This document shows, piece after piece, positions 33,001 through 45,000 of a DNA stretch of 64,000 nt. Numbering within the stretch: the first letter of the stretch is position 1; each line of letters begins with the position of its first letter. The stretch comes from an uncultured Nitrospiraceae bacterium. Lineage in GTDB: Bacteria; Nitrospirota; Nitrospiria; Nitrospirales; Nitrospiraceae. The stretch is taken from positions 1 to 64,000 of the forward strand of contig CAVPLT010000005.1 in the NCBI GenBank assembly GCA_963706325.1, in the 5' to 3' direction. The position numbers are program-made.

Positions 33001-36000
33001 TAGATTTCTGCCAGCAGCATGCAGGCGCTTGCCACCAGCATCTGCACGGATCTCGTCATGCCCATGGTTCCCTCCTTCTTAATCGGCCCTGCTCCGCCTC
33101 AGGATAACAAAGCCCCACGGTCAGTGCGAGGAAATCTCTCCCCATCCACGCACATTGCTTGACACATTCTTTTCACGGACGATATTCTGCGCCCCAAATC
33201 ATCGGAGCCGGCTCATCACACCGCATGTCTCACACACGCATGACGTCTGCTCAGCTTCTTGTACCTCGCGCATTGGTCACCAAGCTGTTGCAGCTCTACG
33301 ACTATCCGGACCCGCGTCGTCCAGGGCGACGTATCAAGGGATATGACTGCCCCCATGCCTTGCGGACCGCCCGGATGTGCGCCGCGGTGGCGCAACGGCT
33401 GGGGCACGAGCCGACGAGGGTGAAGCAGTATCAAATTGCCTGTATCCTGCACGATCTGGGCCGTGCCGGGCTCGATCGGAAACTCTTCGGCCGCATTTGG
33501 TCCTGGGCCCGCGCACAGGGCATTCCGACCAGGCCACGTGAATGGCGAGCCATTCACCCGCAGACTAAGTATGGACGGGAGACCGAGGCCTTTGTGGCAC
33601 TTCACAAGTCCTCGCTGGAGGCCTCAGGAATCGTCCTGGACCGCTGGGCGTGTGAGCAGGTAGAAATGCGTCTGGGCTATGCCCGTCGCCTGGCCAGGCG
33701 TCTTCGTCTTGCGCAACCGATGTTGCGCGATCTGGCCGTCACGTGGTCGCCTTGGATGGGTCGGATCATGCTGTATTACTATTATCCTGAAAAGCTGAAG
33801 GACGCGCAGCCCTGGGTGCGGCAACTGGCCGAGATCCTGGTGGCCTGTGAACAATTTGAGGCCTATAGCAATCAGCGGCGCGGGCGTGATTATTATGCGC
33901 GGCCACGAGAAGACCTGTCGGAAGCCTTTGCCTATCTCGATACATTGCAGAAGGAAGGAATCCTCAGTCGCTTGGTCGTCAGGAGCCTGCGGATGCTGGC
34001 GGCCGAGGGTGCCTTCGATACCGTATTGGAACAGGCGAAGGGACGGGCGTTGTCCAGACGGGAACGCACGCTGTTGCGTCAGGCCGTTCAGGAGTAATGC
34101 ATGGCTGTCAAAAGTATTTCGATGCGGGTGCACATGCAGGGCGATTGCCAGGTGGAGAATATTACTCCGCAGGTGCAGGAGGCGGTCAGGCAGACGCAGC
34201 TGCGGGCCGGCATTCTCACCCTGTTCATCAAACACACGACGGCATCCGTGCTGATCATCGAGGATGAGCCCGGTATCCGCGCCGATACCAAAGCCCTGTG
34301 GGGGCGAATGGTCCCCGCCGATCCCGCTTGGCGGCACAATACCCTTAACCAGGGTGAAGACAACGGCCATAGCCACTTGCGTGGCCAGCTTCAGGGGCAG
34401 TCTCTCACGATTCCGTTCAACGATGGTGTGATGACGCTGGGAACCTGGCAGCAGATCGTCGTGCTGGATTTCGACACTCGCGCGCGCACCCGGGAATTGG
34501 TCATTCAGGTGATGGGTGAATAGGTGTGGTTGAACAGTGCAATGATCTGCAGGGGCAGTGGACGATGCGTCCGCATCGGCTTGATCACGGCGTGGTTTTT
34601 GAGTGGGCCCTATTCGGCGTTGCTTCCTGCTTTAGCCGAGACGAAGGACATTCTCGCTGCGCAATCGCCCGGGCCCACTGAACTCAGCTCAGATGAACAA
34701 TCCACCATTGCAGTTTTCGAGCGGGCGACGAGATCCGTGGTGTTTATCGCAAACACAGCGATGCAACGAGACCCCTGGTCATTCAATCTATTCGAGGTGC
34801 CGCAGGGATCGGGGACCGGATTTGTGTGGAGTCGGCAGGGCCATATCGTCACCAACTTCCATGTTATCTATGGCGCCGATGCCATCACCGTGACCTTGGC
34901 CGATCAAGTCGAATACAAGGCGAAAGTGGTGGGGGTCGACCCGGACCACGATATCGCGGTGCTCCAGATTCAAGCCCCGGAATCGGCCCTTCAACCGGTT
35001 ACGATCGGGAATTCTCAATCGCTACGCGTCGGACAGAAGGTGTTGGCTATCGGTAACCCATTCGGCCTTGACCATACGCTCACCACCGGTGTCGTGAGTG
35101 CGCTCGGTCGGACCATTAAATCAATGAGCAATCGGACCATCGAAGGTGTCATCCAGACTGATGCCGCCATCAACCCCGGCAACTCAGGCGGTCCGCTTTT
35201 GGACAGTGCGGGTCGCTTGATCGGGATGAACACGCAAATCGTGAGCCCAAGCGGCGCGTTTGCCGGAATCGGTTTTGCCGTACCCGCCGATACGGTTAGC
35301 CGGACGGTGCCGGAGTTGATCAAGCATGGCAAGCTGATCAGGCCGGGCTTGGGCATCTCGCTGGTGCCGGATGCCATGGCGCGGCGCTGGGGCGTGCATG
35401 GAGTCATCATCGGGAAGGTCGGACGAGGGAGTTCAGCTGAAAGGGCCGGTCTGCGCGGATCACGAGAAACCTCCGGAGGACGTGTTGAGCTCGGTGACAT
35501 TCTCGTTGCCGTGGACGGAAAGCCAGTGGAAACTATCGACGACCTCATGGCTCTGATGGAGCAGCATAAAGTCGGGGATCAAGTCATCATGGAGTATATG
35601 CGTGGAAATCGGAAGCTGCAGGTGACGGTCGCGTTGCAGGCGGTCAACTGATTTGGACGATGGAGTCAGGCGATCTCCGGTAGCGACAGCGGAGTTGTCC
35701 TCTGTGTTAGGATGACCAGAGTTAGACCAGCCGGAGGACTACACATGAGCGACCATAGAAAATCCGATCAGGCCGAGCCGGGTGCGTCGCAGCCGAGGCG
35801 CGATGTCTCGGCGTCCGCGGATCCGTTGGAGCTGATCGACGAATGTCTGGCAGCGTTCCCAGACAGCGATCCTCGCCAAAAGCTCCTGTACAAGTTACGA
35901 CATGTGATGACGGCTCAGTCGGTCGTACAGGATCGTCGCGAAACCGAATTTAAGAAACTCAACGAAGTGGTGACGAAGTTGACTGCGCCCGCCAATCGGG

Positions 36001-42000: not shown

Positions 42001-45000
42001 GAGGCTCTCCAGGATATTTCACGGGATCCGGATCGTCAGTGGATCGTGCGATTGGAGTCGGGGCAATCGATCTCCGCGATTGATGTTCAAGAACAATTTC
42101 TCGCCGCGGCGCAGCGCTATTGCAAGGGGCAGGACGAAGAGACCGATTGGGTACTGGAGCAATGGGAAGCCGTGCTGGTGGATCTGCGGGGCGACTATGC
42201 GAAGCTGGTGGGCCGAATCGATTGGGCCTCGAAATTATGGCTTTTGGAGACCTATCGTGAGGCGGAGCAGGTTGGGTGGGATGATCCCATGCTGAAGAGC
42301 CTTGATTTGGAATATCACAATCTTCATCCCGCGCGAGGACTGTGTTATGGCTTGGAAGATGAGGGACGCGGTCCTCGATTGACCACCGACAAGGGCGTCC
42401 GTTTGGCGCAAGACAATCCGCCTCGTAACACGCGAGCCTTCGGTCGAGGTGAGCTGGTCCGGCATTTGTTGGGCCATGGCACCTCGGAAACTCCAGGCGA
42501 TGAAGTCGTGGAGGCCGACGATCAGTTGGCCTGCCACTATATTATCAACTGGTCGAATTTCAAAGTGCGGGGCACGTCGCCATTCTTTATGGCGGACCCG
42601 TTCAAAACGTACGTGACGGAAGTTCGCGACCATCTTGCCGGTCGCTAGGTGCTTACCTATCGTCTCATTCCGATCCGCTCGATAGCCCCCTTCGAGACGT
42701 CAAACGCAAACCGCAGTTGCACCGCGAAGTACTTCTGGACCAATCCGGAGCTGTCCAACGGGCGGTCTTCCTCCCGATAAAACGCGACTTCCATGTCCTT
42801 CCAACGAAGGGCAATGCCGATAATCCAGTCAAGTTCCGAGGGATTGAGGGTGTTGCTAGCATCGCGATCGGTAAAGAAATTCATGTCTCCATACAGCACC
42901 ACCTTGTTCTTATACAGATCCAGGTCGGCATGGGCCACGTAGCGGAAGAGCGCCCGTCCCGTATTGTTCGGGCGCGCGAAGTATTGGCTGTTGTAGAAGA
43001 GCCATCCTGCGCCGGCATAGGCCGTGAGATTTTGGTTGGGAAACGTCCGTCGCCACCATGTGGATTCTTGAACGGCTTGGAAGCGGGCCGTCACCAGCGC
43101 ATCGGCATAGGCCTGTTTGAGCCCGCTACGGTCGAGCGGAGCATCGCGTTCATATTGCAGGCGCCAATTGAACCGGTCGAGCACGCCGGTGAACGCAAAG
43201 GTGCCGTCCCATTCAGACAGTTCGATCCATCCGTTAGTGCGGTCCGAGAAAAAGTTCTGATCGGTGTAAAACGTGAGGTACTGCTTGTAAAGGTCCGTTT
43301 CCAAGTGCAGCATGTGCCGCATGCCGACAAGCCCTGAATTGTCCGGCCTGGCGGCGAACGACGGATTCTTTACAAAGGCGCCGGTAAGCAGGTACCCGCC
43401 GAATAGGGTTTCTTCTTCTTCACGACCCTCGCGGCCCGGTTCCTCCATGGAGGGGAGTGGACGTCCATATTTTTCCAGCCCAAATACCTGTCCAACCCCG
43501 AAAGTCGCAAAGAGAAGGCAGCCAGTCAACAGCGCGTGGATGAGTGGTTTTCGATTGCAGCGAGGGCCGGCCATCATTCTTGGCAGCGGGCGAAAATCTC
43601 TTCGCAGTCGTTCGAGGCATCTACCGAACTGGGTGCGAAACGGTACTGAACCAACTCGACTCGATTTTGTTGAAGCATCACCGTCGCCCAACAGCCATGA
43701 TGCGCTGTCGGACGGCTGCTCTTTGACGACACCATGGACTCTTCGAGCAGCGGCGCTTCACGGTAATAACGAAGCAGAGTGAACGTTTCATCGTGCCACT
43801 CGCGCAACGGCATGCCGGCGCAGGACAGAACCTCTTCTCTGCTTTGGCCCCGCAACGATTGCTGGTGGGGATATCCTTCCGTGCTAGGTTGGGCCTGGTG
43901 GCAGGCCAGCAGCCACAGCACCGCGATGACGATTAGCAGGCCCTGAACTACCCGAGAGGGAATAGCGTGCATAGAGGTAACTTCCGGCAAAGAACGTACG
44001 GCACACTGGGTAGCATAGCCGTGATGTCAAAGCAACCCAGACGGTTGGACTCGGCCTGGGTGATTCTACGGGGCAGCTCGTATTTCTGGAGATCTGCATG
44101 CGTGAGCGTTGAGGCTCTCCTGCACCCAGGATGTGGACGTGGTTAGGCTGACCGTGTCGTCAGAATTGTGACAATCGTCATTGTTCTGACTAAGGGCCGC
44201 ATCATCGGCAACTATATCATTTGGTAGCGCAATCTTTGACCTGGTAGCAATCAACTAGGGTATTTCTTATAGGTGCCGATATATGTTTTTCTCGGTGAGG
44301 TGTTGACAAATGCGTTCATTTCCCTAGAATAAGCTGCGAATACGATCAAGGTAACAGTCAGCTTTTGGCCATATCTGAGGCCGTGCGTGCCGCTTAGTCC
44401 CTCCCTGTCCTATCATCGACATCAGCCTATATCATCTGGAACTGTTCATGCGCTTGCAAGAGCGCAGCCTCGTTTTGGACTCGAAGCCTGGGTAGGCCTT
44501 TGTGATGCCAAGACTGCGCGTTACCACCACGTTGTAAGACCACGGCGAGCAATTTTACAGGAGGAATGCATGTCTAATGATATGGCGATCAGTTGCGAGA
44601 GTGGGTTTGCCGTCGATGCGCTTGAGGAAGTCCGCCCTGCCGCTCTCATACCTGAGCGGAGAAAAACCTCCGAGGTTTGGTCGTTGACCATTGAGGAACG
44701 ACGAGCCTCGCGTCGCTGCCAGGTCCACCTCCCGGCAATATTGCACAACGCAGATGGTCGTCGGAGCGGAGTCGCCAAGAGTATCAGTTTCGGAGGCGTG
44801 TCCTTACATTTCTCCGGGGACGTTCTGGCCCTGCTCAACCAACATATCAGACTGGGGTTTAGTTCCAACGCCGATGAGCTCGACAGTCTTGGAGTGGTGT
44901 GCGGCCTCCGGACATTCGGGAATGGATTTCCGTTCGGCGGGACCGATGCCGAGATCAGTTTGGCCGTTCAATTTGTGCGTCTCAGCCCCGGTGATGAGCA

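What a model noticed while it worked through the whole genome (the two positions that open the first line are those of the whole stretch)
35745..42648. Two complete, divergent tag-and-proteasome systems in one cell: a UBact operon and a Pup system with an unlinked pup gen [...]
The genome carries two full sets of Mpa-type ATPase, Dop-like and PafA-like enzymes and proteasome alpha and beta subunits: one operon with a UBact tag gene (C5:35745-42648) and a second (C7:777739-784091) without a tag gene, whose Pup gene lies 104 kb away (C7:673571-673768) beside hppA, recJ and relA. I read them as two orthogonal protein-tagging and degradation pathways working side by side, each ligase pair matched to its own tag and 20S particle. 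Papers read here treat Nitrospirae as having one pupylation pathway; two parallel tag systems as the rule in an order would be new and a natural test bed for tag specificity.
Evidence so far: g02914-g02919: Prot_ATP_ID_OB/AAA, Pup_ligase, UBact (63 aa, ends RTGE; 89% to Swiss-Prot UBact of N. moscoviensis), Proteasome x2, Pup_ligase; g04211-g04215: the same five enzymes; g04115 Pup (65 aa, Pfam Pup E 6e-22, ends KGGE). Identities between the two sets: ATPase 37%, Dop-like 41%, beta 35%, alpha 28%, PafA-like 35%. Both beta subunits keep a pro-peptide followed by Thr-Thr (ATT-ILA, GTT-VLA). Pup family found in 58 of 61 sampled Nitrospirales genomes; UBact in at least 353 of 511 (table, call 24), so most genomes must hold both. 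PMC7947786 (passages) speaks of 'the pupylation pathway' in Actinobacteria and Nitrospirae; search UBact+Pup+Nitrospir: 2 papers, neither on coexistence by t [...]
(Added by a program. Inside this text positions count along the whole contig: contig position 1 is position 1 of the stretch shown here. "Call 12" and the like, gene names such as g00115 and contig names such as C1 are that model's own, and its searches are not shown. The text may have been shortened before it was handed on; [...] marks where a part breaks off. The agent that wrote the report below was given it as the finding of a first reader that could run no searches.)

Follow-up and report, generated by a model that had tools for sequence, protein, structure and literature searches.

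The report
Two proteasome tagging systems per cell
This nitrite-oxidising bacterium, most of its family and most sampled Poribacteria carry two complete, very different 'tag it and shred it' protein-disposal systems, and their tags and docking surfaces differ in matched ways that suggest each works mainly with its own parts; the pairing was noted once for one relative in 2012 and has not been tested at the bench in the papers found.

Summary
Observation confirmed. The window holds an intact arc-dop-UBact-prcB-prcA-pafA operon. Contig C7 holds a second set (28-40% identical) of actinobacterial type, whose pup gene lies 104 kb away between hppA and recJ. The coexistence is not new: a 2012 figure legend reports two divergent copies in Leptospirillum ferrooxidans, one tag lacking GGE, although a 2026 review still says Nitrospirales have one alpha and one beta subunit. 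This scan had noted each half separately on other DNA. Added here: both tags in 97 of 121 family genomes but only 28 of 61 in a family-balanced order sample; two beta genes in 56 of 61 Poribacteria-phylum genomes; matching trees for the two sets; both machines in two published Nitrospira proteomes, where the UBact tag itself was not detected. Signs of separation: acidic Pup versus basic UBact; a ligase/Dop segment (about 350-390) that follows the tag, not the enzyme type, and is where a model seats UBact; ATPase tails GHY[LF] versus non-aromatic, with a matching alpha-subunit change. Best reading: two largely insulated pathways (0.6). No conjugation or orthogonality is shown. New variant of a known kind; interest 0.58.

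The parts
35745..37493 (+). ARC/Mpa-type AAA+ ATPase of the UBact set; OB-N, OB-C, AAA; ends NQII, no GQYL-like tail
   Evidence: (TIGR03689 444 bits, cut-off 505, not met)
37553..39073 (+). Dop-type deamidase/tag remover of the UBact set (in-frame TTG at 37523 is an alternative start); long Dop-loop with its conserved Trp
39076..39267 (+). UBact tag, 63 aa, ends RTGE; basic C-terminal part; predicted disordered 1-38 with helices 39-48 and 53-61
   Evidence: (NF033388 80.7 bits, cut-off 35)
39484..40257 (+). 20S proteasome beta subunit, UBact type; pro-peptide, Thr1, Asp17, Lys33 kept
40320..41156 (+). 20S proteasome alpha subunit, UBact type; Lys52 kept, Ile at the position of Glu119
41158..42648 (+). 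PafA-like enzyme, putative UBact ligase; no Dop-loop, catalytic residues kept, alpha-loop unlike both PafA and Dop

Best explanation
The cell makes two Pup-family tag-and-proteasome pathways of separate, ancient descent, which run side by side and are largely insulated. Pathway P (contig C7 plus the detached pup) is an ordinary actinobacterial-type system and the more abundant one. Pathway U (the window) should use the same chemistry (established for Pup, inferred for UBact): the PafA-like enzyme phosphorylates the tag's C-terminal Glu and links it to a substrate lysine, the Dop-type enzyme removes or deamidates the tag, the ATPase threads the tag's disordered N-terminus and feeds its own 20S particle. 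Insulation is inferred at two surfaces. (1) Tag to enzyme: UBact is basic and four residues shorter before its tail, Pup is acidic, and both U enzymes share a segment (about residues 350-390) that has lost basic and gained acidic or bulky residues relative to both P enzymes. (2) ATPase to 20S: only the P ATPase has the GQYL-type tail, and the U alpha subunit has Ile where P has Glu119. Shown: genes, intact catalytic residues, co-occurrence, co-inheritance, co-expression of both machines in two Nitrospira species. Modelled: UBact on the U ligase. Inferred: conjugation, degradation, exclusion of cross-pairs, separate substrates.
For: All six C7-set proteins pass the actinobacterial NCBIfam cut-offs; the five window enzymes fail them and the tag passes the UBact model. 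Catalytic motifs kept in all four Dop/PafA groups (33, 41, 33, 39 sequences), in beta (Thr1, Asp17, Lys33 in 30 of 33 U, the other 3 not matched by the pattern, and 41 of 41 P) and in the ATPases. A duplication inside the phylum is rejected (p-AU 6e-56 and 3e-91). Concatenated U and P trees for 17 genomes with both share 12 of 14 splits, patristic r 0.99. ATPase tail GHY[LF] in 41 of 41 P and 0 of 33 U; alpha position 119 Glu in 41 of 41 P, Ile/Leu/Val in 33 of 33 U; same in Poribacteria (Glu 12 of 12, Ile 10 of 10). Tag charge over 26 residues: Pup -1 to -5, UBact +3 to +7; -7 to -9 and +5 to +9 in Poribacteria. Site likelihoods: residues 1-75 and 201-225 favour grouping by enzyme type, 326-400 favour grouping by system (best 41-column window 350-390, reached in 0 of 2000 shuffles). 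ESMFold2 with both ligases present seated UBact on the window's ligase, at residues 362-404 and the active site: score 0.74, best of 3 controls 0.00; the mark was reached by 116 of 157 solved complexes and 2 of 215 mismatched pairs; runs agree in at least 89% of contacts, partner pLDDT at least 67 (a like complex, PafA-Pup 4BJR, is solved, so the pass may be by likeness). N. moscoviensis proteome: all five enzymes of each set found with 16-45 unique peptides (PMC8407350 supplement). N. marina under low O2: U-type ATPase counts 43,48,47 to 20,16,21 while the P-type ATPase stayed 104,104,98 to 120,90,90 (PMC8115632 supplement; U/P assigned by gene order and length).
Against: No conjugation of UBact is shown here or in any paper read. 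The UBact tag had 0 peptides in N. moscoviensis (Pup 4; RPKM 64 vs 1242) and the gene id at the tag position is missing from the N. marina table, although the window's UBact yields three tryptic peptides of 7-35 aa, as many as Pup. The U ligase lacks PafA's alpha-loop and the insertion after the catalytic Asp; Foldseek ties it between PafA and Dop and its place in the tree depends on model and columns. The ATPase coiled coils show no charge reversal (U mostly +2 to +4, P -3 to +3). Both tags end Y-x-Q-[KR]-x-G-[EQ], so active-site cross-talk is possible. In N. marina the P-type PafA and Dop also fell under low O2 (log2 -2.3, -0.68), and none of these changes is marked significant in that table. 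The U set is not found in 21 of 121 family genomes and most genomes of the other families, so it is dispensable. The pocket role of Lys52 and Glu119 is recalled, not read.
Confidence: 0.6

Rival explanations
1. Two machines with substantial cross-talk: tags, ligases, ATPases or 20S rings mix, so the second set widens capacity or specificity of one network rather than forming its own pathway.
For: Shared tail Y-x-Q-[KR]-x-G-[EQ] and two-helix layout of the tags; alpha Lys52 kept in both sets; no charge reversal in the ATPase coils; UBact peptides not detected while its enzymes are, which would fit U enzymes working partly on the abundant Pup.
Against: System-specific segment shared by both U enzymes in two phyla; matched ATPase-tail and alpha changes; alpha subunits only 28% identical; the UBact tail is nearly invariant across 38 sequences.
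Confidence: 0.2
2. The U set tags proteins but its ATPase does not dock on a 20S core in the Mpa way (as proposed for proteasome-less corynebacteria); tagging serves remodelling or disassembly, and the U 20S works by another route.
For: No U ATPase has the penultimate aromatic residue (0 of 33; 0 of 9 in Poribacteria), and PMC3511204 section 5 ties loss of this motif to a non-degradative role.
Against: U alpha and beta genes stay in the operon with intact active sites and are expressed; U tails still end in two mostly hydrophobic residues and alpha Lys52 is invariant, which fits a changed rather than lost docking code; U ATPase and U beta fell together under low O2.
Confidence: 0.13
3. The window's last gene is not a ligase but a second hydrolase or an enzyme of another reaction, so UBact is not conjugated by this operon.
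For: NCBIfam scores it 324 bits as Dop and 318 as PafA, both under cut-off; Dop-type spacing after the catalytic Asp and an alpha-loop unlike PafA; grouped with the U Dop under the mixture model (99/98).
Against: No Dop-loop (Trp motif in 1 of 33, against 33 of 33 and 41 of 41 in the Dops), PafA states at Hecht positions 7, 13 and mostly 25; groups with PafA once the system-specific segment is dropped (94/93; columns chosen after seeing the signal); sits at the pafA position.
Confidence: 0.05
4. The second set is a binning artefact or a decaying relic.
For: The two sets lie on different contigs of an unnamed 96%-complete genome; the U set is patchy across the order.
Against: Both occur in single-contig genomes (e.g. 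G041, G001, G081), reading frames are open in the listed matches except two Poribacteria ones, trees match, G+C is near the contig mean (0.579 and 0.540 against 0.565 and 0.570), and both machines are in isolate proteomes.
Confidence: 0.02

Closest known systems
Two pupylation loci (L1, L2) of Leptospirillum ferrooxidans, Barandun et al. 2012, PMC3511204 Fig. 2 legend
   Same: Two full, very divergent copies in one Nitrospirota cell; the second tag lacks GGE, which fits UBact (my inference).
   Different: One species and one sentence, both tags inside their operons; no prevalence, no second phylum, no detached pup, no specificity analysis.
UBact-proteasome clusters of Gram-negative phyla (Lehmann et al. 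2017; not held; recalled. Models NF033388, PF20513)
   Same: Tag family, RTG[EQ] end and gene order arc-dop-tag-prcB-prcA-pafA.
   Different: Whether that paper notes coexistence with Pup could not be checked; no activity data were found.
Actinobacterial Pup-proteasome system (Mpa/ARC, Dop, Pup, PrcB, PrcA, PafA)
   Same: The C7 set passes all six equivalog cut-offs and has the GQYL-type tail.
   Different: pup has left the operon in all 27 operons read from the order, while it is inside in 14 of 14 from the rest of the phylum; the window's set fails the cut-offs and lacks the tail.
[quoted passage not shown]
   Same: Two sets of 20S genes in one bacterium.
   Different: The review calls it the apparent sole exception in Actinomycetales and Nitrospirales; here the duplication covers the whole pathway with two tag families and 28-35% subunit identity.

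Membership tests
Actinobacterial-type Pup-proteasome system (C7 set) | ARC, Dop, PafA, PrcA, PrcB and Pup pass the curated family cut-offs | tested here: met
   TIGR03689 740/505, 03688 561/492, 03686 572/551, 03691 297/139, 03690 304/192, 03687 62/41
Actinobacterial-type Pup-proteasome system (C7 set) | ATPase ends in a GQYL-type motif with penultimate Tyr; Pup ends GG[EQ] | tested here: met
   GHYL and KGGE; motif described in PMC8755798 passages
Actinobacterial-type Pup-proteasome system (C7 set) | pup between dop and prcB | tested here: not met
   13 bp gap; pup 104 kb away between hppA and recJ; same detached site in relatives. A layout variant, not a loss.
Actinobacterial-type Pup-proteasome system (window set) | Family cut-offs and GQYL-type tail | tested here: not met
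   5 of 5 enzymes under cut-off; tail NQII, 0 of 33 with the motif. Works like it by inference, not a member.
UBact system (window set) | Small tag of the UBact family ending R-T-G-[EQ] | tested here: met
   NF033388 80.7 bits (cut-off 35), PF20513 78.1 (cut-off 27.8)
UBact system (window set) | Gene order arc-dop-tag-prcB-prcA-pafA | tested here: met
   same in 20 of 20 U operons L063-L082
UBact system (window set) | Tag is conjugated to lysines and leads to degradation | not testable with these tools
   No assay; tag peptides not detected in two published proteomes
PafA ligase (window 41158-42648) | Carboxylate-amine ligase catalytic residues and no Dop-loop | tested here: met
PafA ligase (window 41158-42648) | PafA-type alpha-loop and insertion after the catalytic Asp (Hecht 2021 Table 1) | tested here: not met
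   Own conserved loop with invariant Trp; no insertion in 33 of 33
PafA ligase (window 41158-42648) | Orthology with PafA in a tree | tested here: inconclusive
   With PafA, with the U Dop; AU tests p 0.50 and 0.08 do not reject the PafA grouping
Dop (window 37553-39073) | Dop-loop with conserved Trp, Dop states near the catalytic Asp | tested here: met
   33 of 33
Active 20S beta subunit (both sets) | Pro-peptide, Thr1, Asp17, Lys33 | tested here: met

The most novel reading that the evidence does not exclude
Bacteria of at least two distant phyla keep a two-code protein-disposal system: an acidic tag (Pup) and a basic tag (UBact), each with its own ligase, remover, unfoldase and 20S core, held apart by oppositely tuned tag grooves and different docking tails, separately regulated and aimed at different substrate sets. 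The ligase and the remover of each system co-adapted to their tag, so the enzyme body follows function while the groove follows the tag.
Probability: 0.4. Interest if true: 0.75.

Novelty: new variant of a known kind. Interest (0 to 1): 0.58.

Why it matters
[quoted passage not shown] Here two pathways are the norm in the main nitrite-oxidiser family and in Poribacteria. UBact has no activity data in the papers found; a cell with both systems gives the natural controls for whether UBact is conjugated, how a Pup-family enzyme tells tags apart, and how an ATPase docks on a 20S core without a GQYL tail. A truly orthogonal tag-ligase-proteasome pair would also be useful beside Pup-based labelling and degradation tools (own knowledge).

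Tried and rejected
Lehmann 2017 not held; De Mot 2007 seen only as cited; the part of PMC7203096 that mentions UBact lies beyond the text held. PMC8665760 has none of the terms searched. Eight literature searches gave no paper devoted to Pup-UBact coexistence; none of the 25 listed mentions Poribacteria (213 matched; the rest not seen). Charge reversal in the ATPase coiled coil: not found. An early note that alpha Arg26 separates the sets was a numbering error and was dropped. Promoter and terminator scan: at or under chance. Three soil RNA runs held 6-8% of the words and gave only patchy short contigs: uninformative. Bpa not found in the genome, but no control rang. UBact has no meaningful PDB match. 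Foldseek does not separate ligase from Dop. A second, independent origin of the ligase was considered; AU p 0.08 and the flip leave it open. In one search the control that replaced the window's ligase, as I read the output, kept the Pup-type PafA and scored 0.00; a low score is no evidence against binding, and Pup against the window's ligase was not modelled. No species tree was built, so 'vertical' is inferred from the match of the two sets. Phyla other than Nitrospirota and Poribacteria could not be surveyed genome by genome.
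Full report
1. Observation. The window carries six co-directional genes from 35745 to 42648: ATPase, Dop-like enzyme, a 63-aa tag ending RTGE, beta, alpha and a PafA-like enzyme. Contig C7 of the same genome (G000, 96% complete, 2% contamination) carries the same five enzymes at 777739-784091 with 13 bp between dop and prcB, and a 65-aa Pup ending KGGE 103,971 bp away between hppA and recJ. Identities between the sets are 28-40%. The genome has four Pup_ligase and five Proteasome-family matches, the fifth a lone gene on C1. All six C7-set proteins pass the actinobacterial NCBIfam cut-offs; the five window enzymes fail them, and the tag passes the UBact model. I call the sets P (Pup) and U (UBact).

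2. How common. In 121 genomes of the window's family (G000 included, at least 90% complete) Pup is in 119, UBact in 99, both in 97; two beta genes in 95; 21 have neither UBact nor a U-type beta (tally in 113). G006 (both) and G045 (P only) are unpublished genomes and enter these counts. In a family-balanced sample of 61 genomes of the order, Pup passes its cut-off in 58, UBact in 29, both occur in 28; UBact by family is 22 of 22, 4 of 22, 2 of 14 and 1 of 3. So 'the rule' holds for one family. Across 201 genomes of the phylum, 83 have a beta gene; both types occur in family f4 (3 of 3) and f14 (6 of 7), only the P type in f5, f9 and f13, and none in 118 genomes with this query. Two Poribacteria genomes reached through named loci had two beta genes; in that phylum 56 of 61 have two, 2 have one, 3 none. 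Operons fetched from ten of them and from the two seed genomes show a P and a U operon, each with its tag inside (a few cut by the stretch fetched or by a contig end). Kin are not independent, and absence in a draft genome is only 'not found'.

3. The detached pup. pup lies between dop and prcB in 14 of 14 P operons read from outside the order and is missing from 27 of 27 inside it. It is flanked by hppA and/or recJ in 30 of 30 loci of the family (the 30 best-scoring of 119; both sides in 25) and in 17 of 20 loci from the other three families, with no proteasome gene within about 3.5 kb. One move in the ancestor of the order is the simplest reading (inference). The scan's note e1-3120188 had said that pup sits at a distant conserved spot; this agrees.

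4. Descent. Holding the phylum's U and P enzymes together is rejected for Dop (p-AU 6e-56) and PafA (3e-91). U enzymes group with those of Poribacteria and with clusters named Gemmatimonadota, Latescibacterota and Armatimonadota; P enzymes group with actinobacterial-type sequences and clusters named Entotheonellia and Moduliflexus. Concatenated U and P trees for 17 genomes that hold both share 12 of 14 splits (the other two weakly supported) with patristic r 0.99: the pair has travelled together for the depth of that sample. In the unrooted PafA tree the actinobacterial-type sequences form their own group (95/88) without the Nitrospirota P set (only one of them carries an actinobacterial name), which gives no support to a donor inside Acidimicrobiia but does not test it.

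5. Is the U set working? Catalytic motifs are kept in all four Dop/PafA groups, in the beta subunits and in the ATPases (Walker A and B, aromatic pore loop, arginine finger). The U Dop has the Dop-loop Trp (33 of 33); the last U gene lacks it (1 of 33) and has PafA states at three of Hecht's positions, but also an alpha-loop unlike either enzyme and no PafA insertion. AlphaFold2 folds it with pLDDT 84 but leaves that loop unsure, and Foldseek ties PafA with Dop. In the N. moscoviensis whole-cell proteome the unique peptides / spectral counts are, for P: ATPase 45/220, Dop 36/215, beta 36/364, alpha 21/222, PafA 19/67, Pup 4/11; for U: 31/101, 21/61, 19/99, 16/75, 18/57 and UBact 0/0; RPKM 1242 for pup and 64 for UBact (PMC8407350 supplement rows; PMC6606698 supplement rows, agree on the transcripts). 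N. marina has both sets in its proteome; under low O2 the U ATPase, beta and alpha fall (log2 -1.24, -1.35, -0.80) while the P ATPase, beta and alpha do not (+0.01, +0.31, +0.03), but P PafA and Dop fall too, none is marked significant, and the id at the U tag position is absent (PMC8115632 supplement rows; assignment by gene order and length). The missing tag peptides count against my reading; low abundance or fast turnover could explain them but were not tested.

6. Signs of insulation. (a) Tags: UBact is predicted disordered to residue 38 with two short helices, like bound Pup, shares the tail Y-x-Q-[KR]-x-G-[EQ], is four residues shorter before it and is basic where Pup is acidic. (b) Enzymes: U Dop and U PafA are more acidic overall (medians -20, -22 against -10, -7). 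A mixture-model tree of 34 rows groups the enzymes by system (99/98); the grouping by function is not rejected (p 0.08) and wins (94/93) when 52 columns at residues 326-336 and 352-392, chosen after I saw the signal, are dropped. A site-by-site test over all columns shows the same mosaic: residues 1-75 and 201-225 favour function, 326-400 favour system, best window 350-390, 0 of 2000 shuffles; top sites include 378 (W/M against R/R), 385 (E/E against Q/Q), 390 (S/H against R/K) and 335 (E/Q against R/K). Poribacteria U enzymes share W378 and S381 fully and E385 mostly. ESMFold2, given both ligases and UBact 26-63, seated the tag on the window's ligase, touching 362-404 (377-378 and 380-385 among them) and the active site: score 0.74, best of 3 controls 0.00; the mark was reached by 116 of 157 solved complexes and 2 of 215 mismatched pairs; runs agree in at least 89% of contacts; partner pLDDT at least 67. 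The job is unlike the calibration and a like complex is solved (4BJR), so this supports likeness and the location of the groove, not binding in the cell. Co-adaptation to the tag, gene conversion within the operon and shared ancestry can all give the mosaic. (c) ATPase and 20S: the tail is GHY[LF] in 41 of 41 P ATPases and in 0 of 33 U ATPases; alpha Lys52 is kept in all, position 119 is Glu in 41 of 41 P and Ile/Leu/Val in 33 of 33 U, position 28 is basic in P and small in U (numbering). Poribacteria repeat this (three P tails have Phe for Tyr). That GQYL docks between alpha subunits is from PMC8755798 and PMC8142254 passages; that Lys52 and Glu119 line the pocket is recalled. (d) Against: no charge reversal in the ATPase coiled coil.

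7. What is in print. Barandun 2012 (PMC3511204; sections 4 and 5 and passages read) states the two-copy state for L. ferrooxidans in a figure legend. Iyer 2008 (PMC2588565; first third and passages), Valas 2008 (PMC3235984, passages) and Fuchs 2017 (PMC5666114, passages) note Nitrospirae proteasomes without the pairing in what I saw; Fuchs describes a separate Gram-negative subunit cluster. Hecht 2021 (PMC7947786; parts 2-3 of 8, passages and four supplement passages) speaks of one pathway, and the Nitrospirae sequences seen in its alignment are P type. A 2026 review (PMC13022661, passages) says that all Actinomycetales and Nitrospirales but R. erythropolis have one alpha and one beta. PMC11354881 (passages) only names UBact; PMC8599861 (passages and section 6) gave the Dop-loop and Pup helices. 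Lehmann 2017 and De Mot 2007 were not read and may already state the coexistence; RefSeq/UniProt annotations of N. moscoviensis name both tags in one genome. Eight searches found no study of the pairing; subscription papers and unread supplements may bear on this.

8. Verdict. Real and intact; the coexistence as such has been in print since 2012 for one relative and is visible in annotations. The additions are its breadth (one family as a rule, patchy elsewhere in the order, other classes, and Poribacteria), the order-wide move of pup, co-inheritance, co-expression, and matched changes at two interfaces that make orthogonality a concrete, testable prediction. Best explanation 0.6; new variant of a known kind; interest 0.58.

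Noticed in passing
G304-G368 (phylum of locus L202); loci L223-L248: Poribacteria carry both a Pup operon and a UBact operon, each with its tag inside; two beta genes in 56 of 61 genomes.
   Followed up: yes
window 33159-35651: HD-domain, UPF0047/YjbQ and HtrA-type protease genes run in tandem directly upstream of the UBact operon; all three in 48 of 62 related loci with at least 4.5 kb upstream. Possibly a wider protein quality-control unit.
   Followed up: partly
window 41158-42648, residues about 206-219: The U ligase has a conserved alpha-loop with an invariant Trp that matches neither PafA nor Dop and is poorly predicted; it may set a different substrate preference.
   Followed up: partly
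G000:C1:683781-684290: A fifth Proteasome-family gene of about 186 codons, probably hslV; not checked.
   Followed up: no
L248 (G319:C1:4515000-4528500): Two PafA-like genes in tandem after the Pup-type alpha gene in one Poribacteria genome.
   Followed up: no
L222 (G288:C79): A divergent Pup-like frame at the hppA-recJ site that scores under the cut-off and does not show the GGE end in the part read.
   Followed up: no
G316:C9 and G321:C1: U-type beta matches with one internal TGA; not examined.
   Followed up: no
L090 (G239), L093 (G260): In some genomes of family f2 pafA is set off from the P operon (1.4 kb gap, or not within 6 kb).
   Followed up: no
window 44387-47302: 971-aa fusion of PilZ, alpha/beta hydrolase or acyltransferase and methyltransferase domains, followed by a sensor kinase.
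   Followed up: no
P0093, P0094, P0102, P0126, P0149, P0020, P0023: Further Dop/PafA lineages with other motifs near the catalytic Asp, outside both the Pup and UBact groups: more tag systems may exist.
   Followed up: no
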